Assembly (NCBI GenBank): GCA_002450095.1
Contig: DJYK01000026.1
Location: forward strand, 17,781 to 81,780
Direction: 5' to 3'
Source: Mageeibacillus sp. UBA6980
GTDB taxonomy: Bacteria; Bacillota; Clostridia; Saccharofermentanales; Saccharofermentanaceae
DNA length: 64,000 nt
How positions within the stretch are numbered: position 1 is the stretch's first letter; every line of letters starts with the position of its first letter. Of the stretch, positions 528 to 47,282 are shown one piece after another. Position numbers and translations under genes: made by a program. The notes beneath the pieces are model-generated. The model was not told the origin of the DNA. It did no database searches and saw only the letters and a list, made by a program, of their open reading frames with translations.

Positions 528-3191
528 ATGTTAACTTGTCCGGCCTGTAATTCTGAGAATGTGTATTTCAGTAAAAAACGCTGTTGTAATATTTGTGAAG
601 ACTGCGGCAAGATATTTCGGGAAGACACAAGACTCAGGTTATTCTTCAGTTATGGTCACGACAAGCATAAAGATCTGGTTGATTTAATACGTAAGCGTCT
701 CGAAGAACGTGGTCACGTTGTATGGATAGATCACAACGATATCGTATTCAATGACGATTGGAGACAGGAAATAACAAGAGGAGTTATCGGTTCCGATGAA
801 ATAATCTCATTTATGTCAAAACATTCCCTACGCGATCCCGGAGTCTGTCTCGATGAAGTTCAAATAGCTATAAGTATAAAGAATGAGCGAGTCATACGAA
901 TCCATCTAGAGGAAACCAAAGAAATCAAACCTTCGACCGCTATATCTTCAAGGCAATACTTGGATATGAAAGATTGGGAAACGTACTATAAGCAGGGCGG
1001 GGAAGTATGGAACGAATGGTTCGATAAAAAGATGTCTGAACTTATTCGATGTATAGAAGATCCTGATAACGCACAATTCGATGGTGAGATAACAGAACTC
1101 TCCCGTAAGTTGCGCCCTATAGACTACTTAACGAGAGCAAGAATACTTTTGAAAGATGAATTCAGAGGCAGAACATGGTTGCTTGATAAGTATAAACAGT
1201 GGAAGAATAGTAGCGATTCCAATATATTCGTGTTATACGGTATACCCGGTGCAGGAAAGAGTGCATTTGCGTCTCGATTGTTTGATGAGGATTATGATGT
1301 TATTGCCTGTGTATTTTTCGAGTTCAGTAGAAAGGATATGTCGGATCTCGATAAAATTACTAATGTTCTAGCCTTTCAGATTGCCTGCAAACTTCCTGAT
1401 TACAGAGAATATCTGCTGTATTGCCTTAATAATGACAGTACTTTTCTTGAACTAGAAGGAATTACACGATTTGATTCTTATATAATAACGCCCCTACGTA
1501 ACTGTATAGTCGGCAGCCGCGACAACCAAATTATCGTTATCGATTCACTTGATGAGGCTTATGACCTTAATAATGAACTTGTAGTTTCGTTGCTCTCAAG
1601 GATAAGACTCTTACCTCGTTGGATAAAGGTCTTGGTTACCAGCAGATACAACAGTGCCATTGACGTATTATTGGACAACGCCGTTAAGACACATATCGAA
1701 AAAGAAACCAAAGATAACGATTCCGACTTAAAGGCTTATCTTTCTGATCACTTTGAAAACTTTCCGAGAATCAATGAACTTGTTTATAAATGTGAAGGCA
1801 GTTTTCTATATGCCTCAATGCTATGTCAGAAGGCAAACCAATCAAATGAATATGCCGAAGAACTACTTGAAACAAACGGAGGTCTTGACTCGTTCTATTA
1901 TCTGGATATTCGGCGGAAGTTTAATTCAGATAGCGGTTTAGATTTTAACAAATATAGACCAATACTCGAATTATTATGCGCCTCTAACGAAATTCCTGAA
2001 TCACTATTATTTCGCATTTTAAGCCTTGATAAGTATGATTATAATTCATTTAAAAACATATTTGCGGATTATATAATCAAAAAAGAATCTTTAGAATATG
2101 ATTTAGATAGGAATAATCAGATAATCAGTTTCTTTCATATGTCGTTCAACGACTGGCTAACTAACCCAGACAGCGCGAACGAGTTCTATATTAACGAACA
2201 AAATGGGGCTACTGTATTAGCCAATTATTTACTCGATAATACCAAGATTAATAACGAGCAAATAAAAGATTATATCGGGGGAAGATATTGGCATGACGGA
2301 GAGCTAATTTCAGTATTGATAAAAGCGGAATTATACAAAGACTGCATAGATATTCTTATTGACAACCCCAATAACAACAGAATGTGGCGTTATGTTAAAC
2401 AATTTCCATCATACATTGATATATCATCTTTAGAAGATACATTTGTTAACAATTGTCGTCACGAACAAATTTATCTAAACAAGATATCAACTGAAGATTT
2501 CATTTATAATTGGTTTCATTTTAGACGTCTTTCTTCCCGATACGAGACTCTATCTCACTTGCTATCAGATGAAAGATTTCTAATAATCCTTATTCAATTA
2601 CTACGCAATGACGATATAGATCCTACAACTTTGGTAGTTATATCACATTTCAAAACGAGTGTACTTCGTGAGATTCTAGGGCTCTATAAAATAGGCCAAA
2701 CACTATCTGATTGTTTAGACCAGTGCGATATACAAGGATATAATATTCCAGATGATATTCGTAAAAAAATCAATCTATTTATTCTTTGTTCCTGCTTTAG
2801 TTATGGTCATCCATCAATAGATTGTATTGAAACTCTAAGGAATGATAAGTTGTATCACAATATTAATGAAATCTGTTCTCTGTCAATTGAAGAGCTGTCT
2901 GTCTATGATATTAGCCAAGATTTAATAATAGCAAGGAACAAATACAACACTTCATGTTTAATAGATTATCTACTAAAACATCTATTTGAATACACCCATA
3001 AAGAACTTAACAACGATAATAAAAACCACATACTCCGTCTTGTTAAATATGGTGCCGAGTTCAATACCGTTATAAACCTTTTTAGAGATTTTGACCGCAG
3101 TAAACTCAAAGACATCATTCTTAATGAAAAGCTGAATTCAATTATTAGTTTGCTTACTCAAATCCAAAATGAACTACCAAATATCAAATGA
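528..3191 (+). CDS. Zn-ribbon - TIR - NACHT/STAND P-loop NTPase (bacterial NLR-like)
   Basis: 887 aa. N-terminal CPAC..CEDC zinc ribbon. TIR-like block RLFFSYGHDKH..WIDHNDI..GVCLDEVQIAI. Walker A YGIPGAGKSAF and Walker B IIVIDSLDEA. Long helical C-terminal region. Confidence 0.8.
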   Translation: MLTCPACNSENVYFSKKRCCNICEDCGKIFREDTRLRLFFSYGHDKHKDLVDLIRKRLEERGHVVWIDHNDIVFNDDWRQEITRGVIGSDEIISFMSKHSLRDPGVCLDEVQIAISIKNERVIRIHLEETKEIKPSTAISSRQYLDMKDWETYYKQGGEVWNEWFDKKMSELIRCIEDPDNAQFDGEITELSRKLRPIDYLTRARILLKDEFRGRTWLLDKYKQWKNSSDSNIFVLYGIPGAGKSAFASRLFDEDYDVIACVFFEFSRKDMSDLDKITNVLAFQIACKLPDYREYLLYCLNNDSTFLELEGITRFDSYIITPLRNCIVGSRDNQIIVIDSLDEAYDLNNELVVSLLSRIRLLPRWIKVLVTSRYNSAIDVLLDNAVKTHIEKETKDNDSDLKAYLSDHFENFPRINELVYKCEGSFLYASMLCQKANQSNEYAEELLETNGGLDSFYYLDIRRKFNSDSGLDFNKYRPILELLCASNEIPESLLFRILSLDKYDYNSFKNIFADYIIKKESLEYDLDRNNQIISFFHMSFNDWLTNPDSANEFYINEQNGATVLANYLLDNTKINNEQIKDYIGGRYWHDGELISVLIKAELYKDCIDILIDNPNNNRMWRYVKQFPSYIDISSLEDTFVNNCRHEQIYLNKISTEDFIYNWFHFRRLSSRYETLSHLLSDERFLIILIQLLRNDDIDPTTLVVISHFKTSVLREILGLYKIGQTLSDCLDQCDIQGYNIPDDIRKKINLFILCSCFSYGHPSIDCIETLRNDKLYHNINEICSLSIEELSVYDISQDLIIARNKYNTSCLIDYLLKHLFEYTHKELNNDNKNHILRLVKYGAEFNTVINLFRDFDRSKLKDIILNEKLNSIISLLTQIQNELPNIK

Positions 3192-3211: not shown

Positions 3212-3261
3212 AAACAGCATGCCGTTTCCGATAGAACGGCATGCTGTTCCGCTTCAAGCGG
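3212..3261. terminator. Bidirectional intrinsic terminator between convergent genes
   Basis: Perfect 14-bp stem aacagcatgccgtt (3212-3225) / aacggcatgctgtt (3234-3247), followed by a second small hairpin ccgc-ttcaa-gcgg. Confidence 0.7.
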
Positions 3262-3286
3262 CACGGAGTGACGCTAATAATTAGAA

Positions 3287-3595
3287 TTAAACACAGTTGA
3301 AATAAGGTTTAAGGCTGTTCATGAGTTCCTTAATATCGCTGTAATCTACGAAGGCGAGCTCGCCATTTGCAAGGAGCGTTTTCAATGGATGGTCGGCGGC
3401 TAATGGTAAATTGCAGGTGATTCCTTTATCGATGAAGACCTTATACAGAGTATTACATTTCTCAAAGCCTAAACGGCAGCTGGATCTGCTGAAGGAAGAG
3501 GGGAGAGTGCATCGGTAGACTTCGCAGTTTCCTTCTTCAAGAAGATCTTTAAGCATATCGTATTGTTTCTGTGTTCCGTAAACGAATTCTCTCAT
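3287..3595 (-). CDS. Small protein (102 aa), paralog of the N-terminal domain of the adjacent AAA+ ATPase
   Basis: SD AAGGAGGA lies just upstream of the ATG, which is 3 nt after the stop of the JAB-E1 gene. It aligns by eye with residues 1-105 of the 5196..6488 product (RLGFEK/RLGIEK, YKVFID/YTVYIED, GELAFV/GELRFN, LKPYF/LEPLF). Confidence 0.7.
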   Translation of the reverse strand: MREFVYGTQKQYDMLKDLLEEGNCEVYRCTLPSSFSRSSCRLGFEKCNTLYKVFIDKGITCNLPLAADHPLKTLLANGELAFVDYSDIKELMNSLKPYFNCV

Positions 3596-3598
3596 GGG

Positions 3599-5194
3599 TT
3601 AATCCTCCTTAACGTCAATAATACGAGTGTCTTTCCATTTTCCTGCGAGTTTACTGAGATCGTGTATGCAACCGCAGAGCTTGCATTCTTTCTCCGGTGA
3701 CTGTTTGAACCAGATCGGTTCGTCTGTGAATGTATTATCGGATGCTTCCTTGTATATGTTATCGAAGCACTTTATTCCGAGTATACTGTTGATATCAGGG
3801 CTGGTTCTGATCATTACGAAGTTTCTGTCGGCAATCTGGTCAAGCAAATTGTTGTATGGACTGTCGGGAGCATCGTGATAACAAAGCATCATTAGTGCAA
3901 TCTGGCCCTTAAGTGAATTCATTCTTTCTGTAACAAATACAGAGCATTCGGCCGAACCGACATTGTTTTTATAGCCGTTCTCGTAGGCTACAAAACGGGG
4001 AAGGAGAATGCATCTCGGACAGGATTCGGTAACTCCGGGATAAACGAACATCAATTCGCATCCTGCTCCTCGCTCATAAACCATAGCAGCCAGATATGGT
4101 ATACCGAATTTCAAAGCTAAATAAGAACTCCTTTTCTGTGCTTCAAAATTATCAGTACAGCCAAGAATAAGGTAATCCTGAGGGCGCTTCCCCGGGAACA
4201 TATTAAGAAGTGAACCGAACTCTTCATCGCTCATACTGTTGTCCAGGAACCTGTTAACAGTAATTACATTTGCTTTGGGGTTAATGTCCAATATACGGCT
4301 CTTTATAACTTCAGTCTTCTGCTTGCCGATCTCACTTATGAATACTCCCTGAGTGGCAATGTTAGATGCACTGACTATGTCCTTATCCATAATAATATAG
4401 TTATTGAATCCGTGTCGGGCCATGTTCTCGAGGAATGATCTGGCTCCGCCTGCTCCGATGCAGACGATTACTTTGTTCCTGACATTGTCGGGAACCAAAG
4501 TATCAACTTTGCCAAACAGCTCAGTTGAGGTGGGAACTGTTGCCTCTACCGATTCCTTGGCAGGTTCCATCTTTTGCTTGGGCTGCGGATTAGTCTTTTC
4601 GATATACGAATCCACTTCTGAAATAGAATAAGAAGTGTGCCAGGATCTTCTGCCGGAGATAGCATAACCGTCCTTGGTTGCATCAATAATGTATTCCAGA
4701 CAGACGAGAATTCTATCATTAATAGTCCTTACTGTATAGAAGAACATTTTATAGAAACCGTTTTTGGTATTAGACATGAATATCGGCATATAGAAAACAG
4801 ATGAATGAAAGAAGTTCATCAGAATTCGTGCAGTCGAAATGTCGTGAAAAGAGGGTCTTATACATCCGTGAGGATGACTGTGGAAGAACCCCAGAGCTGA
4901 AATATAACCTCTGTCTTTCCAATCCCAATAGACATCGTTCATTGCCTTAGGATCATAATAGAATGTTCCTGCGGTGTTGCAGGAAGAAACATCAAACTCA
5001 GCAAGGTCAATCAGATTGGCGTCGTTGGTACAACCGAGCATACCTCCGGTTTCGGCAGGGTAACGACCTACGTTTGTTCTAAAATAGTCCAATACTTCTT
5101 TGGAAAACTTAACTACCGGGCTCTTGGGTAAATCAGCAGGCGTCTGCATCTTTGCATTTCTTCTATTATTTCTGCGAATTGTATATCTTCTCAT
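3599..5194 (-). CDS. JAB/JAMM (MPN+) metallopeptidase fused to a ThiF/MoeB/E1-like adenylyltransferase
   Basis: JAMM motif HSHPHGCIRPSFHD (HxHx7Sx2D) with an upstream AETGG Glu. C-terminal half has Rossmann VCIGAGGARS, DKDIVSASNIATQ, and the Cys pairs CPRC and CKLCGC as in ThiF/MoeB. ATG at 5194 is preferred over the ORF-track TTG at 5209 because SD GAGGAGG sits at 5201-5207 and the upstream gene stops at 5196-5198. Confidence 0.85.
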   Translation of the reverse strand: MRRYTIRRNNRRNAKMQTPADLPKSPVVKFSKEVLDYFRTNVGRYPAETGGMLGCTNDANLIDLAEFDVSSCNTAGTFYYDPKAMNDVYWDWKDRGYISALGFFHSHPHGCIRPSFHDISTARILMNFFHSSVFYMPIFMSNTKNGFYKMFFYTVRTINDRILVCLEYIIDATKDGYAISGRRSWHTSYSISEVDSYIEKTNPQPKQKMEPAKESVEATVPTSTELFGKVDTLVPDNVRNKVIVCIGAGGARSFLENMARHGFNNYIIMDKDIVSASNIATQGVFISEIGKQKTEVIKSRILDINPKANVITVNRFLDNSMSDEEFGSLLNMFPGKRPQDYLILGCTDNFEAQKRSSYLALKFGIPYLAAMVYERGAGCELMFVYPGVTESCPRCILLPRFVAYENGYKNNVGSAECSVFVTERMNSLKGQIALMMLCYHDAPDSPYNNLLDQIADRNFVMIRTSPDINSILGIKCFDNIYKEASDNTFTDEPIWFKQSPEKECKLCGCIHDLSKLAGKWKDTRIIDVKED

Positions 5195-5195
5195 T

Positions 5196-6488
5196 TTATG
5201 CCTCCTCAATAGTAATTCCGTCTTTGAGGTTTCCTTTTACTGCTACTCTTACGCTTTTTCTTTTGTTCTTCTTAATAACTTCGAAAAGCGATTTGCTCTC
5301 GCTTAAGCATTGCTCAACATTATTTCTTATAGTTCTGGCTCCATAAGCACTGTTGTTCAGATAAACAGTTGTCAGATCAAATATCAGGCGTTCGTCTATA
5401 CGAACCGGAGTAAGGTTATATTTGGTAAGACGATCGACTATGAATTTGTTTACTATGTTCATTATGGCTTCTTCATCAAGCTCATCGAAAATGATATAGT
5501 TGCTTATTCTGCTGCTTATTTCAGGACGGCCGCAGTAACGTGTGAAAGCATCTTTGCACAGTTCACATACTTCGTATCTGTTTCTGGCTGATGAAACACT
5601 TTTTACAGGGATATTCGAAGTGAATACCATTATGCAGCAACGGAGATCTATATCCGGTTTGTTGTTGTTTAAATGCAGGAAGCCCTTGTCAATTGCTTCC
5701 ATCAAAGCTGTTATAAGTGATGTGTGGGCTTTTTCAATTTCATCAAATATAAGCACATGAAAAGGATTGTTTCTTACAGGATCAAGAAGAGTCTTATCCT
5801 CGTAGCCTATATATGACGGCGGAGCGCCAAGAATTGACTGTACAGCATGTTCCTGGACAAATACATTGCAATTTATCCTTATTGTGTCGTAATTTGTACC
5901 GGATGCCTCTGACAGTACTTTTGATAATACTTCTGCACACTGTGTCTTACCGGTTCCGGTAGGTCCCATGAACATCATTGTTGTAGGGTGATCCTGTTCC
6001 AGCCATGTTGAAGAAGCAAGTATTCTTGAGACAGAATCAATCTGACGGTCCTGTCCGAATATCTCTTTCTTCAACGGTATTGCGATATCTTCTGATTCGA
6101 GGATCTTTCGATCCTCGTTAGTTCTGTTGTTAAGCATGTCCTTAACTTCGTTTTTGTTATAAAGCGTTTCTGTCTTCTGCTTGAAAAGAGGTTCAAGACC
6201 GATAAGAAAACTCATCATTTCATCAAATGAATTGAATCTTAATTCTCCGGTAGTGATAAGCTGCATGAACATTCTGTTATCACAGTTAAAGCGGATATTG
6301 TTATCTTCAATATAGACAGTATAGTTGCTGCCGGATTTCTCAATGCCTAATCTGGATGTAGGGGGAACACATCCTTCAGGCAGCTTGCAATTGCTGAACA
6401 GAGACATTCTGTTCATGGATTCAAGCTGAGTCAGTTCGTCTTTGAGCGACATTATATCTTCTATTGTTCCGGCAGCAAATCTATACAT
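5196..6488 (-). CDS. Single-module AAA+ ATPase of the ClpA/ClpB D2 (AAA_2) type with a novel N-terminal domain
   Basis: Walker A FMGPTGTGKTQ, GAPPSYIGYED, Walker B VLIFDEIEKAH, sensor-1 VFTSN, GRPEISSRI, sensor-2 GARTIRN. The N-terminal ~105 aa are paralogous to the 102-aa protein. SD AAAGGAG precedes the ATG. Confidence 0.85.
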   Translation of the reverse strand: MYRFAAGTIEDIMSLKDELTQLESMNRMSLFSNCKLPEGCVPPTSRLGIEKSGSNYTVYIEDNNIRFNCDNRMFMQLITTGELRFNSFDEMMSFLIGLEPLFKQKTETLYNKNEVKDMLNNRTNEDRKILESEDIAIPLKKEIFGQDRQIDSVSRILASSTWLEQDHPTTMMFMGPTGTGKTQCAEVLSKVLSEASGTNYDTIRINCNVFVQEHAVQSILGAPPSYIGYEDKTLLDPVRNNPFHVLIFDEIEKAHTSLITALMEAIDKGFLHLNNNKPDIDLRCCIMVFTSNIPVKSVSSARNRYEVCELCKDAFTRYCGRPEISSRISNYIIFDELDEEAIMNIVNKFIVDRLTKYNLTPVRIDERLIFDLTTVYLNNSAYGARTIRNNVEQCLSESKSLFEVIKKNKRKSVRVAVKGNLKDGITIEEA

Positions 6489-6533
6489 GTTTATTCTCCT
6501 TTACAAGTATTATTGAAGTTGGAATGATTCTGA

Positions 6534-6788
6534 TTACGGCATCGGTTTACGCTGCCCGTCTCCATGAAAGCCTCCGGAGGGCAGCGATTGGCGCTGCTCA
6601 CCTCCGTGGAAGCCTCCGGAGGGCAGCGATTCACGCTGCTCACCTCCGTGGAAGCCTCCGGAAGGCAGCGATTCGCGCTGCTCACCTCCGTGGAAGCCTC
6701 CGGAAGGCAGCGATTCACGCTGCTCACCTCCGTGGAATCCGAGAGAGGGAAGGTGTGTTCTTGTTGTAGTGTTCTGAATGTTTGTCAT
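6534..6788 (-). CDS. 84-aa tandem-repeat peptide (five 14-aa units LPSGGFHGGEQRES), first gene of the operon
   Basis: AAGGAG lies 9 nt upstream of the ATG at 6788, and the stop is 45 nt before the AAA+ gene. The repeat is open in all six frames, so coding status rests on the SD/ATG context and operon position. Confidence 0.55.
   Translation of the reverse strand: MTNIQNTTTRTHLPSLGFHGGEQRESLPSGGFHGGEQRESLPSGGFHGGEQRESLPSGGFHGGEQRQSLPSGGFHGDGQRKPMP
6538..6750. repeat. Head-to-tail 42-bp tandem repeat array (four near-perfect copies at 6567-6734 plus degenerate flanking copies)
   Basis: Copies at 6567-6608, 6609-6650, 6651-6692 and 6693-6734 differ by only a few bases each (unit gaagcctccggagggcagcgattcacgctgctcacctccgtg). 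Diverged partial copies lie on both sides. Confidence 0.95.
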
Positions 6789-6842
6789 AGTTGTTTTCTC
6801 CTTTATATAAGTTTTTTGTTGTGTGGCGAACCACGTTTATAC

Positions 6843-6998
6843 TCCTATGATATGTTGCTTTTTACTAAGCCCGGGGAGGGGGGTGATAATTTGAAGATCA
6901 ATCCTCTCCCTTGTTGTTATGCTCCTATGATATGATGCTTTTTCTATCATTCCCGTAGGGGGGTAATAAACTGAAAGTGGTAATTGATCCCCCCTCGC
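6843..6998. promoter_or_regulatory. Duplicated ~80-bp module in the divergent intergenic region (conserved 22-mer plus G-tract/C-tract hairpin)
   Basis: ctcctatgatatgTtgcttttt (6843-6864) and ctcctatgatatgAtgcttttt (6922-6943). Each is followed by a G-run (ggggagggggg / gtagggggg) and a complementary C-run (cctctccc / cccccctc). Confidence 0.5.
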
Positions 6999-7019
6999 AA
7001 TGCAATCTATATGAGCTCC

Positions 7020-7046
7020 TATAATTAACTAAAACCAATAAGGAGG
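7020..7046 (+). promoter_or_regulatory. Candidate -10 box and SD for the plus-strand operon
   Basis: TATAAT at 7020-7025 and AAGGAGG at 7040-7046, 6 nt before the ATG at 7053. No convincing -35 was seen. Confidence 0.35.
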
Positions 7047-7052
7047 TTCCAT

Positions 7053-7649
7053 ATGAGACTTGCAGATAACGGTTCATTAACTCTTGATAATAACTTACAG
7101 GAAGCCTTTATTGAGGACATAGACAGCTTTACATATATATGTCACGGACGTGTTCTTGAGGTTGATCATCATGAGTTGTTTTATTCAAAAAATCACAAGA
7201 TTGCGAACTCCATTTTCAGGGGGGAGCCCTATCAGTATGCTCATCAATCGATAGAATACAGAGTCAGACTCGGTAACCTCTCATATGGACGTTCGACAGA
7301 TTATAGAGATTACAATCTTTTTGGAAACTATCTTGGCATGATTAAGCCCGGAGATGAAGTAAAATTCAGAGTTCGTAAGGGACCTCGAGAGAAGGTTGTT
7401 GCAATTTATAACTGTACGACGGGAAGACAATTAAGACCGTCAATTCAGTTGTCTGCCGGTGTGGTCAGACTGTTTGCGGTTTTGGCCACGGCCTTGTTGG
7501 CCGGAGGCGTGTATGGTGTTTACTACCTGATAACGTCAGGCGTTCTTTGGCATATTTTTATGAAGATCCTTTATGGTCTTATCGGACTGGGCTTAGTCCT
7601 GTGGATCTATGATCTTTTGTTTTTCAGGTTCTTCAGAAAGAGAAAGTGA
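7053..7649 (+). CDS. Membrane protein (soluble N-domain plus C-terminal TM helices), function unknown
   Basis: 198 aa with a strong SD. Hydrophobic stretches VVRLFAVLATALLAGGVYGVYYLI and ILYGLIGLGLVLWIYDLLFF. Confidence 0.6.
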   Translation: MRLADNGSLTLDNNLQEAFIEDIDSFTYICHGRVLEVDHHELFYSKNHKIANSIFRGEPYQYAHQSIEYRVRLGNLSYGRSTDYRDYNLFGNYLGMIKPGDEVKFRVRKGPREKVVAIYNCTTGRQLRPSIQLSAGVVRLFAVLATALLAGGVYGVYYLITSGVLWHIFMKILYGLIGLGLVLWIYDLLFFRFFRKRK

Positions 7650-7652: not shown

Positions 7653-10157
7653 GTGAGGTGGAATATGGACAAGAATACTACTGATTATTTATCTGCAAAG
7701 AGAATTGCTTCCGGGATAGTAAATGTGTCTCAAGGATATGGTCTTGAGACTGTTGCTCCCGGTGATGTTCTTGCTGACAGAATACTTATGCCTGATGTAA
7801 ACAGATGGTACAGGCTCAATCAGATACGAGCCTGTTCTAATAATGAGAATACTCATAATACTTATAAGAATGCAATCAAAAGCACTATGGCATCGGTGTT
7901 AAGACAAAATGAAGATATCGTTTGTTCATATGTGTTTGATGGTGGCGAAGTGTCAGTAATGTATGGAGCAAGAAATGCCGATGTTGGCATGATGCTTGAA
8001 AGTTCTTTGCCTGAATGCAGAATGGAGATGGCAAGTCTTGATATTAATGACAGAACATACAGCTATAACGGAATAATTACCGGTCGTATCAGAGGAGAAG
8101 AGCTGTCGGATAAATTGGTTGCAGCAGGCGTTAACGGCGGATCAGGCTTTGTTGCACTTGTAGCCCAGAGTGTCCCTTTACAACACTTGAATGAAAGAAT
8201 TGAAAATAATAACCGTTTGATTGGTTTCCTTAACCGTTACTCTGTGTCACGTAATACTTATGGTGAGATGAGTAGGTACGAGGAAGAATATGTTGAACAG
8301 GATATTGTTAATGCCGTTGAAATACTGAAGGAAGAGAACGATGTATTGCTTCGTAACAGAGAAGAAGGATTTACATACTCTATAATAAGATTTGGTGCAA
8401 ATGGCATTGATTTATTCAACAGGCTCAAAACAATGCTTTGTTCAGTTAATTCTGCCTCTGTGGACAGAAATACCGGTGTAAGCCATGAACCTGTCAGATG
8501 TATTGAGATCCCCCCGTTTATGCGAATCAGACCGCTGGCTGTACCATACATTAAGTCAGGCGATAATGTTTATATCCCTGATACTATGGTTGCAATTGAT
8601 GAATTGTCAGAAGCATTTATTCCTGCGAGACGGTCTGTATTCGGATATAACTACATTAACTATCATATAGATGAAAACTCTTATGAAGCTTTTCCTACAA
8701 TGCCGTTGTTTGCCGGTAAATCGTTTGAAGTCGGAAAGATAAGCGATTCAAACGGAAAGGCTTTAATTCCTGTAAGTATGATAAATCAGCATGTCTTTGT
8801 TACCGGAAGTACAGGTCAGGGTAAAACGACTACGGTAAAGAAGCTTTTAGCAGAGGCGTGGAAAGAACAGATTCCTTTTATTGTCTTTGAGAGTGCAAAG
8901 AAGGAGTACTTCTCCCTTATTAAAGCAATACCGTCTCTTCGTGTGCTGACATCAGGCCTTGACGGTAACGCTTTGGCAACGGATCCTTTCTGCCCGGAAA
9001 GGGGCATTACTATAGGTGAACATGCTGATGCTTTGGAAAGGGCGATAATGGCAGCTTGTGAAGGCGAACATCCTATCCCCGAAGCTTTGGCGGGTTTGCT
9101 TGAGTATTCATATCGTAAATCCGGATGGGAGTATGATGAGCCGGCTTATGAAGATTTACGAAGACCTTTTCCTACAGCCCGGGAAGTATATGAGAATATC
9201 GACGATTATATACGAGAGAATGCCGGGTATGGTCAGGAAGTGACGGCAAATATCAAAGGAGCTCTCGAGATGAGGATCAGGGTTCTGACCAGCGGATTGG
9301 CAACTCATGTGTTTACCTATAATAATGCAATGACTGCCAGGGAACTGCTATCTGTTCCGACCGTGATTGAGATGGAAGATTACCCCGAGAAACTAAGAGT
9401 GTTCTTGACCAATATCCTTTTGTTTAAGATCAAGTCTTATCTCAAAAAGGTTGCTGAGAGTGATTCATTGAAAAGAATCATAGTAATAGAAGAAGCGCAT
9501 AATATCTTCCGAAAGACAATACATGAAGAATCAACTCAGGCTGCAAATAACAGATATATAGAGAATATGCTCGCAACCGTACGTGCATCCGGTACAGGGA
9601 TAATTATAAGTGATCAGCGTCCGTCATTAATGTCTGACGCAGTTATAGCAAATACTTCCGTGAAAATACTGCATGCTCAAACATCGTCTGAAGATATCAA
9701 TATTGTTGGTCAGAGTATGGGGCTTACAGAGTTTCAGATAAGAAAAGTGAGAGAGCTTCGTAAAGGCGAATGTCTTATTGCATTGACCGGTGTCCACGGA
9801 GTTCAGAGAGCGAAGATTAATATGTTGGAAACAACAGCTGCAATCAATGCTGCGTGCCATATTTGTCATCATCGTTATGACTGTAAACAATCTATGGCTG
9901 CCAGAACAGTCGCATCTATGAATCGGGATTTGTTGAAATACCATGTATCCGGAATCCTCGGTGTGATATATGAACCTGATAGGCTTAAGTCCGGCCTCGA
10001 CAGATTATTCCATGATGTCGGATTATATTGCGGATTGACAGCCTCGTGTTGTGTTTTGGCAGAGATACTGAATGAGTATGCACCTGATCTTTCTTTCGAA
10101 GAGAAGAGGATAATCGTAACTTCATATTACAGGTTTTTATCCCCCCTCAAGAGATGA
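7653..10157 (+). CDS. HerA/FtsK-superfamily (DUF87-like) P-loop ATPase with a large N-terminal extension
   Basis: Walker A VTGSTGQGKTTT, Walker B RIIVIEEAHNIF, then IIISDQRPS. No TM segment. The start is ambiguous (GTG 7653 or ATG 7665). Confidence 0.7.
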   Translation: MRWNMDKNTTDYLSAKRIASGIVNVSQGYGLETVAPGDVLADRILMPDVNRWYRLNQIRACSNNENTHNTYKNAIKSTMASVLRQNEDIVCSYVFDGGEVSVMYGARNADVGMMLESSLPECRMEMASLDINDRTYSYNGIITGRIRGEELSDKLVAAGVNGGSGFVALVAQSVPLQHLNERIENNNRLIGFLNRYSVSRNTYGEMSRYEEEYVEQDIVNAVEILKEENDVLLRNREEGFTYSIIRFGANGIDLFNRLKTMLCSVNSASVDRNTGVSHEPVRCIEIPPFMRIRPLAVPYIKSGDNVYIPDTMVAIDELSEAFIPARRSVFGYNYINYHIDENSYEAFPTMPLFAGKSFEVGKISDSNGKALIPVSMINQHVFVTGSTGQGKTTTVKKLLAEAWKEQIPFIVFESAKKEYFSLIKAIPSLRVLTSGLDGNALATDPFCPERGITIGEHADALERAIMAACEGEHPIPEALAGLLEYSYRKSGWEYDEPAYEDLRRPFPTAREVYENIDDYIRENAGYGQEVTANIKGALEMRIRVLTSGLATHVFTYNNAMTARELLSVPTVIEMEDYPEKLRVFLTNILLFKIKSYLKKVAESDSLKRIIVIEEAHNIFRKTIHEESTQAANNRYIENMLATVRASGTGIIISDQRPSLMSDAVIANTSVKILHAQTSSEDINIVGQSMGLTEFQIRKVRELRKGECLIALTGVHGVQRAKINMLETTAAINAACHICHHRYDCKQSMAARTVASMNRDLLKYHVSGILGVIYEPDRLKSGLDRLFHDVGLYCGLTASCCVLAEILNEYAPDLSFEEKRIIVTSYYRFLSPLKR

Positions 10158-10197: not shown

Positions 10198-10422
10198 ATG
10201 GCAGAAGTATTAGGACCAATTGTTTGTGTTGTATATGCTTGTATAGCTGTTGGGTTGATAACCGGTACAGACGATTCGTTTAAGTGCAAAGTTATCGGAA
10301 TCTGTTTCGCTGTAGCTGCGATTCCTCTGGTGGTTTTTATGGACGTCGTGATTAAAGTTCTCGGCGTGTTAATTGTAATAGCAGCGATTTTAATATTTAT
10401 CTACTGCCTGTTAGGAGTGTGA
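10198..10422 (+). CDS. Small two-TM membrane protein
   Basis: 74 aa, almost entirely hydrophobic. SD AAGGAGGAAGG upstream. Confidence 0.6.
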   Translation: MAEVLGPIVCVVYACIAVGLITGTDDSFKCKVIGICFAVAAIPLVVFMDVVIKVLGVLIVIAAILIFIYCLLGV

Positions 10423-10928
10423 CTGTTATGGATAAGACTATCTATTCTGTTTTTCTTGTAGTTGTAATAGTCGGAGCTTGTGTAATTAAGCTTGTGTATC
10501 TTAATTGTAAGGAACGCAAGGCTCAGCAACAGCGAAATAGGAACAATAACAATAGCAGCAATATTAACAGTAACAGGAATAGTGTAAGCCGCCCGATAAT
10601 ACAGGAAAGTACACCTGTTGCCCGTGCAAATATTAGTAATAATTATGTTTATTATTTTGCAAACGGCAGAGGCCCTCTTGAAGACAGGACGTTTTGTTTC
10701 AGTTACGAGAAAGTTGGTGAATCCTGGCGTGCTTATATAGTAAAAATGCCTTCCTTGAGATCTCGTGATGCGTCATTCGCGTTGACCCACAGATTGAGAG
10801 CGGATGACGGCAGGACGTATGTCTGCTGGGACAGTCCGATACATAATCTGAAGGATATGCAGAATGTATCTAAGATGTGGGCTGACTGTATTTGTGAGTA
10901 CATCAAGACAGGAAAGAGATTCGGATGA
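10419..10928 (+). CDS. Single-pass membrane protein with an Asn-rich linker, function unknown
   Basis: N-terminal TM YSVFLVVVIVGACVIKLVYL, then QQQRNRNNNNSSNINSNRN, then a globular C-domain. Overlaps the upstream stop. The start could be ATG 10428. Confidence 0.5.
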   Translation: MTVMDKTIYSVFLVVVIVGACVIKLVYLNCKERKAQQQRNRNNNNSSNINSNRNSVSRPIIQESTPVARANISNNYVYYFANGRGPLEDRTFCFSYEKVGESWRAYIVKMPSLRSRDASFALTHRLRADDGRTYVCWDSPIHNLKDMQNVSKMWADCICEYIKTGKRFG

Positions 10929-10938
10929 GGGAAAAGAT

Positions 10939-11718
10939 ATGAAACTAATGAAAAACAAGTTAACGAATATGGGTGAAGCACAGGCGCACGCTGAAAGCTG
11001 CCATTGGAATTCACTTGGAAGAATTGCTGAGACTGAAGGCAGATTCATCTCTGATGCTGACAAGGAGCGGATAGCCGGCGGTGTAGATACACTTAAGGTT
11101 GTTGAGTACGATCCTTTCGGTGAACGAAGCGGTGGGTACAGATGCCTAGAGGGTAAAAGCGAGATGGAGATATCTGTTCTTAATAAAGAACAGGTTGAAC
11201 GCACTACAATGCATGAGACAAACCATTTCGTAAGTCATCACAGCGAGACTTCCGTCCCATCCGTGGAACGTAACGGTGTATATGAGTACCAGACGGTAGG
11301 ATTGCGCCACTCTTCTTGGTTCAGGTCTAATGAGACGGGCAAAGTTCAAGAGGTGAAGATAACGGGCCGTGGACTTAACGAAGGTGTTACTACGATGTAC
11401 ACGAACAGACAGTTGATGGAATTAGACCGTGCCAAAGGTTTGGAGGCTGCAAGAACCGGAATATATCAGCATGCTACTGAGTTGTCATCCCAGCTTGAGA
11501 TAATTGTCGGCAGCGATGTTCTTAAGGAGGCATATTACGGAGGCAAGGAAAACGAGTTGAAAGAGCGGGTTGATAGACTTGGAGGAGCTGGTACTTACGA
11601 GAGATTGCGGGAATGCATGGATGGAACCGTATCATCTAACTATTATGAGCGAATCAATTCGACTGCACGGGCTCAGAAGATAATGGAAGAACTGTATGAA
11701 GGAGCGAAGAGAAAATGA
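10939..11718 (+). CDS. Putative HExxH zinc metallopeptidase
   Basis: MHETNHF motif plus a downstream GLNEGVT (possible third ligand). ATG 10939 chosen from the longer 10864 ORF because the preceding gene ends at 10928. Confidence 0.45.
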   Translation: MKLMKNKLTNMGEAQAHAESCHWNSLGRIAETEGRFISDADKERIAGGVDTLKVVEYDPFGERSGGYRCLEGKSEMEISVLNKEQVERTTMHETNHFVSHHSETSVPSVERNGVYEYQTVGLRHSSWFRSNETGKVQEVKITGRGLNEGVTTMYTNRQLMELDRAKGLEAARTGIYQHATELSSQLEIIVGSDVLKEAYYGGKENELKERVDRLGGAGTYERLRECMDGTVSSNYYERINSTARAQKIMEELYEGAKRK

Positions 11719-12056
11719 AAGATTATGTTATGAACTATTTGTTCTCAAACGGCGTAAGTATTAACTCGGTTAAGGAAGAGCAGGAGATCGAAGAAGGTAT
11801 ATCGCTCTTTCTTACAGAGTGCGGCTTGGCTCGAAGTAAGGATTCAGAGTATGCCAGAGGATATGTAAGACAGATCTTGTCGATAATAGACCCCCGTGAT
11901 ATAAAACAAATATTTTTGAAGTATAATGTAATAAGTAGAACGAGACAGCTCGCAGCCGAAGGCCGTACCTATGCGGATCCTGAGATGATGAAGTGTCTTA
12001 CTGAACTGAATGAGTGCGGGTTATACGGAAAGTATGTGCCCAATGTAGAAGAGTAA
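11715..12056 (+). CDS. Small hypothetical protein, translationally coupled to the peptidase gene
   Basis: ATGA start/stop overlap at 11715-11718. 113 aa with no recognisable motif. Confidence 0.5.
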   Translation: MKDYVMNYLFSNGVSINSVKEEQEIEEGISLFLTECGLARSKDSEYARGYVRQILSIIDPRDIKQIFLKYNVISRTRQLAAEGRTYADPEMMKCLTELNECGLYGKYVPNVEE

Positions 12057-13792: not shown

Positions 13793-14470
13793 ATGGGATT
13801 AAGTGAACCCGGTTTTTACCATGTACAAGAGTGTGTACCTAATCAGGATTGTATTCTTGCTGGTACCGTGAATAATTATCGAGTAGCAGTATTGGCTGAT
13901 GGAGTTTCTACTTGTCGTTGTTCAGGACAAGGTGCTTTTTTAGCCTGTTCTAAAACAAGAAGTTTTTTACTGAATAATGCAGAAGATGTTTTCGAATATG
14001 ATAAAGAATCAATTGCTGAATACATAGTTGATTCTGTTTATCGCTCTTTGTGTGAAGTATCAAATGTAAATGGCGATGCTCCCGCTGACTATTCCAGTAC
14101 ACTATCTGCAGTCTTATATGATCGCAGATCTCACCGATTAGTATGCTTTCATTTGGGAGATGGGTTGATTCTTTTGGCAAATAGGAAAGGATGCAGAGCT
14201 TTATGCATCCCGGGCAGCCGCATTAACGGAACAGCAGTTACAACAACAATTGGTGCTCATAAGGTATCAGTTGTTGTTAAAGAAGATATCTCATTTGATA
14301 AACACGTGTTATTGTGTTCAGATGGGGCATGGGAGAATATGTATAGAAAGGGATTCTTAAAGAATGAACCATTAAAATACATAACTAAAGGCAGGTTTAA
14401 TGCTTTGGATAATTATATTAGAAATACACATCCTAATGACGACTACAGTTATATTGCGATGAAACTATAG
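13793..14470 (+). CDS. PP2C-family Ser/Thr protein phosphatase
   Basis: VLADGVS, HLGDGLILL and LLCSDGAWE blocks, matching the metal-binding Asp motifs of bacterial PP2C/SpoIIE-like phosphatases. Confidence 0.7.
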   Translation: MGLSEPGFYHVQECVPNQDCILAGTVNNYRVAVLADGVSTCRCSGQGAFLACSKTRSFLLNNAEDVFEYDKESIAEYIVDSVYRSLCEVSNVNGDAPADYSSTLSAVLYDRRSHRLVCFHLGDGLILLANRKGCRALCIPGSRINGTAVTTTIGAHKVSVVVKEDISFDKHVLLCSDGAWENMYRKGFLKNEPLKYITKGRFNALDNYIRNTHPNDDYSYIAMKL

Positions 14471-31357: not shown

Positions 31358-31432
31358 GGTGCCATAGCCAAGCGGTAAGGCCAAGGTCTGCAAAACCTTT
31401 ATTCCCCGGTTCAAATCCGGGTGGCACCTCCA
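31358..31432 (+). tRNA. tRNA-Cys (anticodon GCA)
   Basis: Cloverleaf by eye: acceptor ggtgcca/tggcacc, anticodon arm aaggt-ctGCAaa-acctt, T arm cccgg-ttcaaat-ccggg, encoded CCA. Confidence 0.9.
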
Positions 31433-33623: not shown

Positions 33624-33699
<76 letters not shown>

Positions 33700-36511: not shown

Positions 36512-36800
36512 CTCGCGGCGGATAATGATCAGGCGGATATTATATGACCGCTTGGGTCTTACAGATGTCAGTAATGAAGGAGGCATGATAAAAAGTAAAA
36601 CAGGGGCGATGTGAAAGCTATCACGGTTGTATTATTCAAGTACAACAGTGAGACAGAGTAGATACTAACTCGACATATTTACTGATCCGTATGAGGTCGC
36701 GAAGGAGAATGGGAAGTTAGCAATCGAATCATGCAGAGGTCGAGAAGGCCGAATAGGAGATTGGAAGCATCACCCAACAGAAGTTGTCTTGCTGAAGGAA
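36512..36800 (+). ncRNA. Candidate IS110 bridge-RNA-type noncoding RNA in the left arm
   Basis: Long non-coding stretch between the -10-like box and the transposase SD, with local hairpins (e.g. ggttgta..tacaac). The assignment is by analogy only and the boundaries are not determined. Confidence 0.3.
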
Positions 36801-36817
36801 CTTACGGAGGTAAGAAA

Positions 36818-47197: not shown

Positions 47198-47233
47198 TCT
47201 GTAATATAAATCAGTTAAATAGATTTTGGCAGA

Positions 47234-47270
47234 TTCCCCAAGCATAATTGTTTGGGGATTTTATTTATTT
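47234..47270 (+). terminator. Intrinsic terminator of the infC-rpmI-rplT operon
   Basis: tcccca / tgggga stem followed by ttttatttatttt. Confidence 0.7.
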
Positions 47271-47282
47271 TATAATATTCAT

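What the first reader, a model, noticed from the sequence alone, without database searches (positions are those of the whole stretch)
3287..6788. Four-gene operon of a Gly-Gly repeat peptide, a Clp-D2-type AAA+, a JAB-E1 fusion and a small adaptor-like protein: candidate undescribed ubiquitin-like or peptide-activation system
Seen in the sequence:
- Four minus-strand genes are packed as one translationally coupled unit (gaps of 45, 1 and 3 nt). Each has a strong SD, and the unit is closed by a strong terminator at 3212-3261.
- The enzymatic core is a single polypeptide joining a complete JAMM motif (HxHx7Sx2D plus the upstream Glu) to a ThiF/E1-type Rossmann domain with two Cys pairs.
- It is flanked by a single-ring ClpB-D2-like unfoldase and two small proteins.

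Established knowledge: E1 plus JAB pairs define bacterial ubiquitin-like conjugation modules (CBASS Cap2/Cap3, Bil/ISG15-like, Bub), and E1-like MccB activates peptide C-termini.

What differs here: I see no E2 domain, no CD-NTase and no recognisable beta-grasp protein ending in Gly. Instead there is an AAA+ unfoldase and a repeat peptide.

Inference: this may be a minimal tag-activation and unfolding machine, or a peptide-modification pathway. It sits in an island flanked by TIR/STAND genes, so an anti-phage role is plausible. I cannot place this combination in any named system.
Basis: partly seen in the sequence, partly recalled or inferred. Interest (0 to 1): 0.9.

Follow-up and report, generated by a model that had tools for sequence, protein, structure and literature searches.

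The report
Peptide-activating enzyme module on conjugative elements
Gut bacteria carry, on mobile DNA, a conserved and apparently undescribed gene set that pairs a protease-plus-activating enzyme and a protein-unfolding motor with a gene encoding many tandem copies of a 14-residue glycine-rich peptide; it may be a new way of making and attaching (or cyclising) small peptides.

Summary
Four coupled minus-strand genes encode an 84-aa repeat peptide, a single-ring ClpB-D2-like AAA+, a JAB-E1 fusion and a 102-aa protein, followed by a strong hairpin terminator.

New findings:
- The repeat is translated and conserved. The motif F-[H/R]-G-G-x-Q, in 13-14-aa units, occurs 2-19 times.
- Searching by the enzyme or by the repeat alone finds the same gene set.
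- The 102-aa protein is a paralog of the AAA+ N-terminal domain. Its fold has no solved or viral match.
- The unit is larger than four genes. A membrane-anchored ~100-aa domain protein (p169) and a small membrane protein always accompany it. A HerA/VirB4-like ATPase block usually does.
- Outside this window the conserved context is conjugative or mobilizable elements (coupling protein, relaxase, ClpP-like), not TIR/STAND genes.
- Distant high-GC variants keep the E1, JAB (fused or separate), AAA+, repeat peptide and p169.
- No E2, beta-grasp Ubl, CD-NTase or BubE was found. No named system or paper matched.

Most likely mechanism (inferred, not shown): JAB cuts a head-to-tail polyprotein at F[H/R]|GG, and E1 adenylates the new C-terminus for ligation. 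This is a new variant of E1/JAB pathways, and possibly more than that.

The parts
6534..6788 (-). Repeat-peptide gene (84 aa): a 12-aa leader, five 14-aa units (LPSGGFHGGEQRES) and a degenerate tail (GDGQRKPMP).
   Evidence: ORF and SD. Third-codon-position bias of differences. Homologous repeat proteins next to the enzymes in more than 80 loci.
6538..6737 (.). 42-bp tandem repeat, 4.8 copies, underlying the peptide units.
   Evidence: TRF score 309, 91% matches, no indels.
5196..6488 (-). Single-ring AAA+ ATPase (430 aa), ClpB/ClpA/ClpC D2-like. Contains Walker A GPTGTGKT, Walker B FDEIEKA, pore loop GAPPSYIGY and sensor-2 GAR. No IGF/IGL ClpP-docking tripeptide.
   Evidence: Pfam AAA_2 5.7e-26. 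PDB ClpB/ClpC/ClpA D2 about 1e-31. NCBIfam ClpA/ClpB far below cut-off. PADLOC DolB 2e-21.
6180..6488 (-). N-terminal ~103-aa domain of the AAA+, paralogous to the 102-aa protein.
   Evidence: BLASTP 1e-7. Profile hit 1.4e-34; each locus has exactly two copies of the domain.
3599..5194 (-). JAB(JAMM)-E1(ThiF) fusion, 531 aa. JAB is at about 4790-5116 and E1 at about 3635-4531.
   Evidence: Pfam. Invariant catalytic and adenylation residues, two CxxC pairs, and invariant Y404 and C417 after the first CxxC. Only distant similarity to TcdA, MoeB, UBA5, MccB, ThiF and PaaA.
3287..3595 (-). p102: stand-alone copy of the AAA+ N-domain fold (alpha-beta3-alpha-beta-alpha).
   Evidence: AF2 pLDDT 84. 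No Foldseek match in PDB or BFVD. A small family: 146 representatives among 1.8e9 proteins.
3215..3262 (-). Intrinsic-terminator-like hairpin closing the operon.
   Evidence: RNA fold -34.1 kcal/mol, z -4.07; sequence.
6789..7052 (.). Divergent intergenic (promoter) region between the module and the plus-strand block. Contains an 80-bp-spaced direct duplication (6837-6895 and 6917-6975).
   Evidence: No experimentally meaningful promoter call.
7053..7649 (+). p198: soluble N-domain plus two C-terminal TM helices. Co-conserved neighbour.
   Evidence: Homologs next to the module in L001-3, L008, L009, L011, L014, L015 and in 12/15 well-flanked metagenome loci. TM prediction.
7653..10157 (+). p834: HerA/FtsK/VirB4-superfamily ATPase. 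Co-conserved neighbour.
   Evidence: Pfam DUF87/HerA_C. NCBIfam CedD 3.6e-23, VirB4 5e-8. PDB HerA 9e-9. Homologs adjacent in most loci.
10198..10422 (+). p74: small 2-TM protein. Probable counterpart of the 74-80-aa membrane protein found in 52 related loci.
   Evidence: TM prediction. Family in the loci. The window copy was NOT linked by jackhmmer, so the equivalence rests on size, position and hydrophobicity only.
10419..10928 (+). p169: N-terminal TM anchor, low-complexity linker and a conserved ~100-aa cytoplasmic domain with invariant R, Y, H, C, W, W. Ends ...GKRFG.
   Evidence: One to three paralogs next to the module in every lineage, including distant L019 and L119. No Pfam, PDB or E2 match.
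10864..11718 (+). p284: HExxH-containing protein. Frequent neighbour.
   Evidence: homologs in 8 loci. Motif read from the sequence. No family hit.
11715..12056 (+). p113: small soluble protein. Frequent neighbour.

Best explanation
This is a mobile-element-borne system for processing and activating a peptide. It is made of at least six parts:
- the repeat protein
- a JAB-E1 enzyme
- a single-ring ClpB-D2-type AAA+ whose N-domain has a free paralog (p102)
- p102 itself
- a membrane-anchored p169 protein
- a small membrane protein

Shown:
- The parts are real, translated and under selection.
- They co-occur across distant lineages.
- The catalytic motifs are intact.

Inferred:
1. The repeat protein is a cytoplasmic, disordered, head-to-tail polyprotein of a 13-14-residue unit (GG-[E/R/V]Q-xxx-[L/T]P-G-x-G-F-[H/R]), analogous to a polyubiquitin precursor.
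2. The JAB domain cuts between the aromatic-basic dipeptide and the following Gly-Gly (F[H/R]|GG), or trims the C-terminal tail.
3. The fused E1 domain adenylates the newly exposed C-terminal carboxylate, possibly passing it to invariant C417 or Y404.
4. The activated peptide is ligated to an amine. I favour a protein target at the membrane, with p169 as target or platform.
5. The AAA+ engages the peptide or the peptide-marked proteins through its N-domain and threads them. Free p102 acts as a competitor or adaptor.

The biological role is tied to conjugative or mobilizable elements: transfer, establishment, or conflict with the host or with other elements.
For: Gene set and motifs.

The repeat is coding and conserved.

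Forward co-occurrence. AAA+, JAB-E1 and p102 are present in every related genome locus with enough contig.

Reverse co-occurrence. Loci were found only by the DNA pattern HGGEQ-N27-HGGEQ:
- 30/30 with more than 1.5 kb of flank carry the AAA+ or the JAB-E1.
- 15/15 with more than 3 kb carry both; 14/15 carry p102 and 13/15 carry p169.

Deep conservation of peptide plus enzymes:
- L019, 37% identical E1, unit LDGGTWHGGRQGD.
- L117, GC 62%, unit TPGTFRGGVQSQRL, 42-bp period.
- L121...RGTFHGGDQIP.
- JAB and E1 are separate genes in L119/L120.

Unit phase:
- 11 proteins are exactly a leader plus n x (GGEQxxxLPxGGFH) with the stop codon straight after ...GFH.
- A stop straight after ...GFH is the commonest C-terminus (9 classes), and no array ends ...HGG.
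- L117 also leaves the repeat straight after ...TFR.

Copy number runs from 2 to 19, and differs between near-identical contigs L001-3. This fits independent units.

Precedent: the JAB domain of the JAB-E1 fusion BubCD cleaves a pre-protein to expose the C-terminus that its E1 domain adenylates (PMC11601596).

The AAA+ pore loop and sensor motifs are intact.

Mobile-element context: T4CP, ClpP-like, relaxase, integrase.
Against: - No biochemical step is shown.
- JAMM peptidases canonically cut after Gly-Gly. That favours cleavage at HGG|EQ, and many leaders end in ...[hydrophobic]GG.
- Known protein-conjugating E1s act on C-terminal Gly of a folded beta-grasp. Here the C-terminus would be His or Arg on a disordered peptide.
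- No E2-like carrier was detected, and no conserved Lys or other obvious acceptor is known.
- The array structure is equally compatible with an uncleaved multivalent motif scaffold.
- The p169 structure could not be predicted (pLDDT 53).
- The window itself lacks a T4CP or relaxase within 64 kb.
Confidence: 0.5

Rival explanations
1. RiPP-like pathway. The repeat protein is a multi-core precursor. JAB excises the cores. E1 activates each C-terminus for an intramolecular reaction: head-to-tail macrolactamisation onto the N-terminal Gly-Gly, or nucleotide capping as in microcin C. The product is a free small peptide, perhaps exported with the help of the membrane proteins and the HerA/VirB4-like ATPase.
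For: - E1-like enzymes that act on short ribosomal peptides exist. MccB and PaaA appear among the PDB hits, at 7e-7 and 5e-3, and are reviewed in PMC12596934.
- The units have conserved termini and a variable centre, are rich in Gly and Pro, and start with an unhindered Gly-Gly under the favoured phase.
- Membrane proteins and a translocating-type ATPase are co-conserved.
Against: - There is no recognisable exporter (ABC/MFS), immunity gene or RRE domain.
- The leaders have no secretion features.
- An AAA+ unfoldase and a free paralog of its N-domain have no role in known RiPP pathways.
- Similarity to MccB and PaaA is limited to the Rossmann core.
Confidence: 0.2
2. Scaffold or decoy model. 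The repeat protein is not cleaved. It is a multivalent array of a short linear motif ([L/T]PGxGF[H/R]) that binds the AAA+ N-domain, p102 or another partner. JAB-E1 acts on a different substrate, most plausibly the C-terminus of p169 (...GKRFG, sometimes ...GKRFGPE or ...GKRFGPQ), in the way Cap2 and Cap3 act on the CD-NTase C-terminus.
For: - Arrays begin and end with the LPGGGFH element: 57 of 78 start with it and all end just after it.
- Copy number is highly variable.
- 14 of 17 p169 domains end in F-G or F-G-P-[E/Q].
- Six N-domains per AAA+ hexamer would suit a multivalent ligand (inference).
Against: - The linker motif GG[E/R/V]Q is as conserved as the 'motif' itself, even in distant lineages. 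This is unusual for a spacer.
- In L019 and L119 the p169 homologs do not end in Gly. The invariant Gly is internal.
- p169 is usually membrane-anchored and present in 1-3 divergent paralogs.
Confidence: 0.2
3. A stand-alone anti-phage defence system. Tagging and unfolding would be triggered by infection, and the mobile-element location would only reflect defence genes riding on ICEs.
For: - In this window the module sits in a low-GC island with TIR-STAND, TIR-TPR, PP2C and kinase-Card1-like nuclease genes.
- The AAA+ resembles DolB of Dodola and PDC-M37B.
- Other E1/JAB operons are defensive (PMC10097602, PMC10557695).
- L004 has a DarT1-NADAR gene nearby.
Against: - The TIR/STAND neighbours are not conserved.
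- What is conserved across three or four distant lineages is adjacency to T4CP, ClpP-like or relaxase genes.
- No PADLOC model matches the system as a whole, and DolA is absent.
- No recognisable effector lies in the core. A possible effector (the HExxH protein p284) is only a frequent neighbour.
Confidence: 0.2
4. A decayed or partial copy of a known E1/JAB system (CBASS type II, Bil, Bub) that has lost its E2, Ubl or CD-NTase.
For: - The JAB-E1 architecture equals BubCD of Type I Bub (PMC11601596).
- PADLOC E1-E2 models hit the E1 core.
Against: - The same gene set, without E2, Ubl, CD-NTase or DUF6527, recurs in more than 100 loci from several lineages with intact catalytic motifs.
- The PADLOC hits cover only residues ~240-335, the Rossmann core, with no E2 part.
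Confidence: 0.03

Closest known systems
Type I Bub (6E.1) operons: BubCD JAB-E1 fusion with BubAB (Ubl-E2) and BubE (PMC11601596; first noted as operon type 6e in PMC1779556)
   Same: - One polypeptide with an N-terminal JAB/JAMM peptidase and a C-terminal E1.
- In Bub the JAB domain cuts a pre-protein to expose the C-terminus that the E1 adenylates. This is the logic proposed here.
- Found on mobile elements.
- There is an invariant Tyr (Y404) after the first CxxC, where Bub uses a crossover-loop Tyr.
   Different: - No beta-grasp Ubl, no E2 and no DUF6527/BubE.
- The candidate substrate is a tandem 14-residue peptide array.
- An AAA+ unfoldase, its N-domain paralog and p169 are obligatory partners.
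- The E1 is only distantly related to solved E1s.
- The hosts are Clostridia and some high-GC lineages, not mainly Proteobacteria.
CBASS type II Cap2 (E1-E2) / Cap3 (JAB) and Bil (BilABCD) conjugation systems (PMC10097602, PMC10557695)
   Same: An E1 adenylation domain plus a JAMM peptidase that control a C-terminal conjugation cycle. Accessory to mobile or defence loci.
   Different: No CD-NTase, E2 or Ubl. JAB is fused to E1 rather than E2 to E1. An AAA+ and a repeat peptide are present.
MccB / PaaA: E1-like enzymes that activate short ribosomal peptides (microcin C, pantocin A; PMC12596934)
   Same: An E1-like adenylating enzyme with an unstructured ribosomal peptide as the likely substrate.
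   Different: - Those precursors are single-core, end in Asn (MccA) or react through Glu side chains, and come with exporters or immunity genes.
- Here the precursor is a multi-copy array ending in F-H/R.
- A JAB peptidase and an AAA+ are present, and there is no exporter.
Pup-proteasome system (own knowledge)
   Same: The same logic: a disordered peptide tag, a processing/deconjugating enzyme coupled to a ligating one, and an AAA+ unfoldase with a tag-binding N-domain. The motif GG[E/Q] recalls Pup's C-terminal GGQ/GGE.
   Different: Unrelated enzymes (PafA and Dop are glutamine-synthetase-like). Pup is a single-copy 60-70-aa protein. A 20S protease is the endpoint. None of these is present here.
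Polyubiquitin genes (own knowledge)
   Same: Head-to-tail tandem units, variable copy number, and a last unit that is sometimes followed by a short extra tail that would need trimming. A JAMM-type enzyme could release the units.
   Different: The units are 13-14 disordered residues, not a 76-residue beta-grasp. The unit ends in F-H/R, not G-G, under the favoured phase.
Dodola DolB / PADLOC candidate PDC-M37B (ClpB-like AAA+ of defence systems)
   Same: A single Clp-type AAA+ ring in an accessory locus (PADLOC 2e-21).
   Different: DolA (DUF6414) is absent. The N-domain is different. The match is generic ClpB-D2 similarity.

Membership tests
Type I Bub (6E.1) | JAB/JAMM peptidase fused N-terminally to an E1 (BubCD) | tested here: met
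   Pfam Prok-JAB 49-131 and ThiF 241-406 in one 531-aa protein. Motifs invariant.
Type I Bub (6E.1) | Ubl-E2 fusion (BubAB) with beta-grasp and UBC-like domains in the operon | tested here: not met
   - No Ubl or E2 family on any neighbour in the window or in the loci.
- The p102 model is not a beta-grasp or UBC fold by Foldseek.
- p169 against UBC profiles gives hhalign probability 0.1%.
Type I Bub (6E.1) | BubE (DUF6527/PF20137) serine protease | tested here: not met
   No PF20137 hit among the window proteins scanned or in the precomputed Pfam of neighbouring genes.
CBASS type II (Cap2/Cap3) | CD-NTase plus an E1-E2 fusion plus a separate JAB | tested here: not met
   PADLOC E1-E2 models match only residues ~240-335, the E1 core. 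No CD-NTase or E2 in any locus.
Bil (BilABCD) | Separate Ubl, E2, JAB and E1 genes | tested here: not met
   No Ubl or E2 detected.
MccB/PaaA-type peptide-activating E1-like enzymes | E1-like enzyme whose substrate is a short ribosomal peptide encoded alongside | tested here: inconclusive
   The peptide gene is strictly co-located. Substrate status is untested. Similarity to MccB (7e-7) and PaaA (5e-3) is confined to the Rossmann core.
MccB/PaaA-type peptide-activating E1-like enzymes | Precursor ends in Asn (MccA) or has a Glu-Glu-Asn core; N-terminal peptide-clamp/RRE domain; exporter or immunity genes | tested here: not met
   The repeat proteins end in ...GFH or in varied tails. The N-terminal domain is JAB. 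No exporter or immunity families found.
ClpB/Hsp104 disaggregases | Two AAA+ rings (D1 + D2) with a coiled-coil M-domain | tested here: not met
   Only one AAA module, aligned to D2 (residues ~125-400). It scores far below the NCBIfam ClpA/ClpB cut-offs (137 against 993 bits).
ClpA/ClpC/ClpX-type ClpP partners | [I/L/V]-G-[F/L] ClpP-docking loop after the TSN sensor-1 motif | tested here: not met
   The window sequence reads FTSNIPVKSVSSARNRYEV, with no tripeptide. Only the distant L019 homolog has KKKLGF at that position.
Dodola | DolA (DUF6414) plus DolB (ClpB-like) | tested here: not met
   DolB model 2.2e-21 on the AAA+, but no DolA hit on any neighbour.
Pup-proteasome | PafA/Dop ligase-deamidase, Mpa/ARC, 20S proteasome | tested here: not met
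   None of these families appears in Pfam or NCBIfam scans of the block. The resemblance is one of logic only.
Conjugative T4SS (Gram-positive) | VirB4-like ATPase with a small membrane partner, a T4CP and a relaxase in one element | tested here: inconclusive
   - p834 belongs to the HerA/VirB4 superfamily: CedD 3.6e-23, VirB4 5e-8, HerA 9e-9.
- T4CP, relaxase or ClpP-like genes lie next to the module in L001, L004, L019, L119 and others.
- None of them is in this window.

The most novel reading that the evidence does not exclude
A ribosomally encoded 13-14-residue peptide without a beta-grasp fold serves as a ubiquitin-like covalent tag. It is made as a polyprotein, released by a JAB domain, activated by the fused E1 without any E2, and attached to proteins at the membrane. 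A dedicated single-ring AAA+ unfoldase reads the tag through a novel N-domain. Conjugative elements would use this to mark and unfold proteins, for example substrates of the coupling protein/T4SS, or host or rival factors. That would make it a third, independent bacterial tag-and-unfold system alongside Pup and the Ubl pathways.
Probability: 0.2. Interest if true: 0.92.

Novelty: new variant of a known kind. Interest (0 to 1): 0.78.

Why it matters
All known E1/JAB pathways activate a folded beta-grasp protein or, in CBASS, an enzyme's tail. All E1-like peptide enzymes work on single-core precursors. This module couples a JAB-E1 to a tandem array of a tiny conserved peptide and to an unfoldase. 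It includes two protein domains (p102 and p169) that have no relatives of known structure or function.

The module is abundant in common human gut Clostridia. The Fusicatenibacter saccharivorans variant was seen on more than 1000 contigs. It rides on conjugative or mobilizable elements in several lineages.

If the peptide is a tag, this is a new class of protein modifier. If it is cyclised or capped, it is a new RiPP chemistry. Either way the module could affect how mobile DNA spreads in the gut.

The hypothesis can be tested directly with four or five recombinant proteins and mass spectrometry.

Tried and rejected
1. The tandem repeat as non-coding DNA with an accidental ORF. Rejected. There is third-position bias within and between loci, protein-level conservation across GC contents from 36% to 62%, and an SD plus ATG.
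2. p102 as a beta-grasp Ubl or an E2. A confident model (pLDDT 84) has no Foldseek match in PDB (best E 0.085) or BFVD (best E 0.066), and the protein does not end in Gly.
3. p169 as a cryptic E2. Pfam at E<=10 and the PDB profile search gave only spurious hits (PRDM9 zinc-finger linkers). 
4. The C-terminal Gly of p169 or of the small membrane protein as a universal E1 substrate end. Not universal.
5. Plasmid and phage databases. The JAB-E1 has no tblastn match at 1e-10.
6. Rfam on 1-24 kb. Nothing found.
7. Literature. Six full-text searches, including the peptide motif itself, found no description. One unrelated hit for GGGFHGG came from a condensate paper.
8. The simple promoter and terminator scan was uninformative.
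9. The word-indexed homolog search was too insensitive for p102 (10 hits) and p169 (2 hits).

Full report
**1. Observation**

- repeat peptide, 6534-6788 (84 aa)
- AAA+, 5196-6488 (430 aa)
- JAB-E1, 3599-5194 (531 aa from the ATG)
- p102, 3287-3595 (102 aa)

The intergenic gaps are 45, 1 and 3 nt, and each gene has a good Shine-Dalgarno sequence. The hairpin after p102 folds at -34.1 kcal/mol (z = -4.07) and is followed by a U-run.

Pfam finds AAA_2 (5.7e-26), ThiF (3.1e-20) and Prok-JAB (5.3e-7). Nine homologs are 53-57% identical to the window protein. In these the JAMM residues are invariant (E48, H105xH107, S115, D118). So are the E1 glycine loop, D270, K291/293, TD348N, R355, two CxxC pairs, and Y404 and C417 in the stretch after the first CxxC.

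The AAA+ aligns only to the D2 ring of ClpB, ClpA and ClpC (about 1e-31). It has intact Walker A and B motifs, the GAPPxYxGY pore loop and the sensor-2 GAR. It has no ClpP-docking tripeptide.

**2. The repeat peptide is real**

TRF finds a 42-bp unit repeated 4.8 times with no indels. Differences between units fall 4/3/11 on codon positions 1/2/3. Consensus units from different loci differ mainly at third positions, for example 0/1/6 for L004 against L016. The core LPxGGFHGGEQ is unchanged.

Homologous repeat proteins lie next to the enzymes in the related loci, either upstream of the AAA+ or downstream of the JAB-E1.

**3. Co-occurrence in both directions**

The JAB-E1 has 579 detectable homologs. 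The listed ones are all from gut Clostridia: Frisingicoccus, Fusicatenibacter saccharivorans on more than 1000 contigs, Faecalibacterium, Bariatricus, Blautia and Acutalibacteraceae. Every related locus with enough contig carries the AAA+, the JAB-E1 and a p102 homolog.

For the reverse test I scanned metagenomes with a DNA pattern that encodes only HGGEQ-(9 codons)-HGGEQ. This returned 92 stretches, of which 78 carry true repeat ORFs, mostly from human gut. Results:

| Flank on both sides | Loci | AAA+ or JAB-E1 | Both | p102 | p169 | p198 | p834 |
|---|---|---|---|---|---|---|---|
| more than 1.5 kb | 30 | 30 | – | 27 | 26 | 24 | 16 |
| more than 3 kb | 15 | 15 | 15 | 14 | 13 | 12 | 11 |

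The repeat peptide is therefore a specific component of this module.

**4. The unit is larger than four genes**

The plus-strand genes next door in the window have homologs directly downstream of the p102 homolog in most loci, where they run in the same direction as the module. They are:
- p198 (7053-7649)
- p834 (7653-10157)
- p169 (10419-10928)
- p284 (10864-11718)
- p113 (11715-12056)

p169 has an N-terminal TM anchor, a linker and a ~100-aa domain with invariant R, Y, H, C, W, W. It is present in one to three paralogs in every lineage. A 74-80-aa polytopic membrane protein is found in 52 loci. The window's p74 is probably its counterpart, but I could not link it by sequence.

p834 is a HerA/FtsK/VirB4-superfamily ATPase: CedD 3.6e-23, VirB4 5e-8, HerA structures 9e-9.

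**5. Context**

In this window the block lies in a low-GC island with TIR-STAND, PP2C, kinase-Card1-like nuclease and TIR-TPR genes. That neighbourhood is not conserved.

The recurring neighbours are genes of conjugative or mobilizable elements:
- TraG/VirD4-type coupling proteins and a ClpP-like protease in Lachnospiraceae and Acutalibacteraceae loci
- a TrwB-like coupling protein, a Replic_Relax relaxase and an integrase in a high-GC lineage

The window itself has none of these within 64 kb. The JAB-E1 has no match in PLSDB plasmids or INPHARED phages.

**6. p102 and distant variants**

p102 is homologous to the first ~103 residues of the AAA+ (BLASTP 1e-7). A profile of the domain finds exactly two copies per locus. 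In 1.8 billion representative proteins it has only 146 relatives. These are stand-alone ~100-aa proteins or N-termini of ~420-520-aa AAA+ proteins, plus one TIR-TPR fusion.

Its AF2 model (pLDDT 84; alpha-beta3-alpha-beta-alpha) has no significant match in PDB or BFVD. By these tests it is neither a beta-grasp nor a UBC fold.

Following distant N-domain relatives to their contigs gave four kinds of variant:
- L117 (GC 62%) has a repeat peptide with a 42-bp unit (TPGTFRGGVQSQRL x3), a 680-aa JAB-E1 and an AAA+.
- L119 and L120 have a TM-less p169 homolog (2e-18), separate JAB and E1 genes, an AAA+, a T4CP and a relaxase.
- L121 has an E1, an AAA+ and the start of a repeat peptide (...RGTFHGGDQIP) at the contig end.
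- L113 and L114 have the C-terminus of a JAB-E1-like protein followed by an N-domain-AAA+.

The deeply conserved core is therefore E1 (with JAB fused or adjacent), the N-domain-AAA+, the F-[H/R]-G-G-x-Q repeat peptide and the p169 domain.

**7. How it most likely works (inference)**

A protease fused to a carboxylate-adenylating enzyme implies cutting followed by C-terminal activation. The JAB domain of BubCD does exactly this for its pre-protein (PMC11601596). The only conserved partner with reiterated, sharply conserved sites is the repeat protein.

Its architecture points to the unit phase GG[E/R/V]Q-xxx-[L/T]P-G-x-G-F-[H/R]:
- Eleven proteins are exactly a leader plus n whole units, with the stop codon immediately after ...GFH.
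- A stop immediately after ...GFH is the commonest C-terminus.
- No array ends in ...HGG.
- Other arrays end in ...GFH plus a short or long tail, as polyubiquitin genes do.
- The high-GC L117 array also leaves the repeat right after ...TFR.

Conservation is highest across the F[H/R]|GG[E]Q junction and lowest in the three residues at the centre of the unit. I therefore favour this sequence of events:
1. JAB cleaves at F[H/R]|GG.
2. E1 adenylates the new His or Arg carboxylate.
3. The activated peptide is transferred to an amine.
4. The AAA+ engages the peptide or marked proteins through its N-domain, and p102 modulates this.

The main alternative cut site is HGG|EQ, the canonical JAMM position. 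Many leaders end in ...[hydrophobic]GG, which fits it.

I cannot distinguish a protein tag from a cyclised or capped free peptide. I also cannot exclude that the array is an uncleaved multivalent scaffold, with p169's ...RFG(PE) end as the true E1 substrate.

**8. Comparison with known systems**

JAB-E1 fusions are known from operon type 6e, now Type I Bub (PMC1779556, PMC11601596). Those operons are defined by a Ubl-E2 fusion and the DUF6527 protease. Neither is present here, and the same holds for the CD-NTase and E2 of CBASS and the Ubl and E2 of Bil.

The E1 core is only remotely similar to TcdA, MoeB, UBA5, MccB, ThiF and PaaA.

PADLOC matches the AAA+ to DolB and PDC-M37B generically, without DolA.

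Full-text searches, including the peptide motif itself, found no description.

I file it as a new variant of the E1/JAB pathway kind. The open possibility is that it is a new kind of peptide tag.

**9. Caveats**

- No step of the mechanism has been tested.
- The p169 fold is unresolved, because the tool accepted only a three-sequence alignment.
- Metagenome contigs are short, so absence calls are limited by the available flank.
- The link between this window's copy and a conjugative element is by homology of the block, not by T4CP or relaxase genes in the window.

Noticed in passing
window 528-3191, 13793-14470, 14486-18601, 18674-21523: The low-GC (0.32-0.43) island at 1-24 kb carries several defence-type genes: a TIR-NPHP3_N STAND NTPase, a PP2C phosphatase, a 1371-aa protein kinase with a C-terminal Card1-like endonuclease domain, and a TIR-TPR/Sel1 protein. 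These are not conserved next to the module elsewhere.
   Followed up: partly
window 6837-6895 and 6917-6975: An 80-bp-spaced direct duplication (27-nt plus 19-nt blocks, 84-93% identical) lies in the divergent intergenic region between the repeat-peptide gene and p198. It could be paired operator or promoter elements.
   Followed up: no
L001/L002/L003 10035-11042: Near-identical Fusicatenibacter contigs differ only in repeat copy number: the repeat proteins are 146, 335 and 119 aa. Every second unit there has lost GGEQ (FHNECTEE), giving an 81-bp super-repeat.
   Followed up: partly
L011 7798-8592; L091, L037, L023 and others: Faecalibacterium-type repeat proteins carry a conserved ~63-aa C-terminal extension (…RDEQQSDPSEGWQKVTLLLENGER[A/V]DVLIEQDQ…SELAWSFV). 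Fusicatenibacter-type ones end in …FGVDWFFA. The function of these tails is unknown.
   Followed up: no
L019 7377-8900 and 3520-4107: The distant Acutalibacteraceae AAA+ has KKKLGF exactly where ClpA and ClpC carry their ClpP-docking loop. A ClpP-like gene lies three genes upstream. ClpP-like genes occur near the module in about 16 loci, but the other AAA+ homologs lack the tripeptide.
   Followed up: partly
L025 6802-7587: In one metagenome contig the repeat array switches reading frame midway. The same DNA then reads as RIPWRRAEGDTS or ADSMEESRRRHFQG units. This is either an assembly error in the repeat or a frameshifted allele.
   Followed up: no
window 6534-6788; L019 4296-4469: The unit composition (P, H, G-G-G, F/W, G, Q) recalls the Cu-binding PHGGGWGQ octarepeat of mammalian PrP and the oligopeptide repeats of Sup35, here paired with a ClpB/Hsp104-type ring. 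This resemblance is from memory only and was not tested.
   Followed up: no
L119 5885-6892: Where JAB is a separate gene (335 aa), it has a hydrophobic segment near its C-terminus. This is consistent with the module working at the membrane.
   Followed up: no
window 47226-63054: An unrelated NRPS cluster: three A-T-C or A-T-TE proteins at 48506-51397, 51399-54281 and 55686-58091, followed by a 1248-aa FtsX-type permease.
   Followed up: no
window 36731-37906; 31358-31432; 33624-33699: An IS110-family transposase, plus tRNA-Cys and tRNA-Gly genes, in the higher-GC part of the window.
   Followed up: no
L004 1-446: A DarT1-NADAR gene lies about 6 kb upstream of the module in Frisingicoccus. A DUF6273 protein and a 1016-aa protein lie between the module and the coupling protein.
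   Followed up: no
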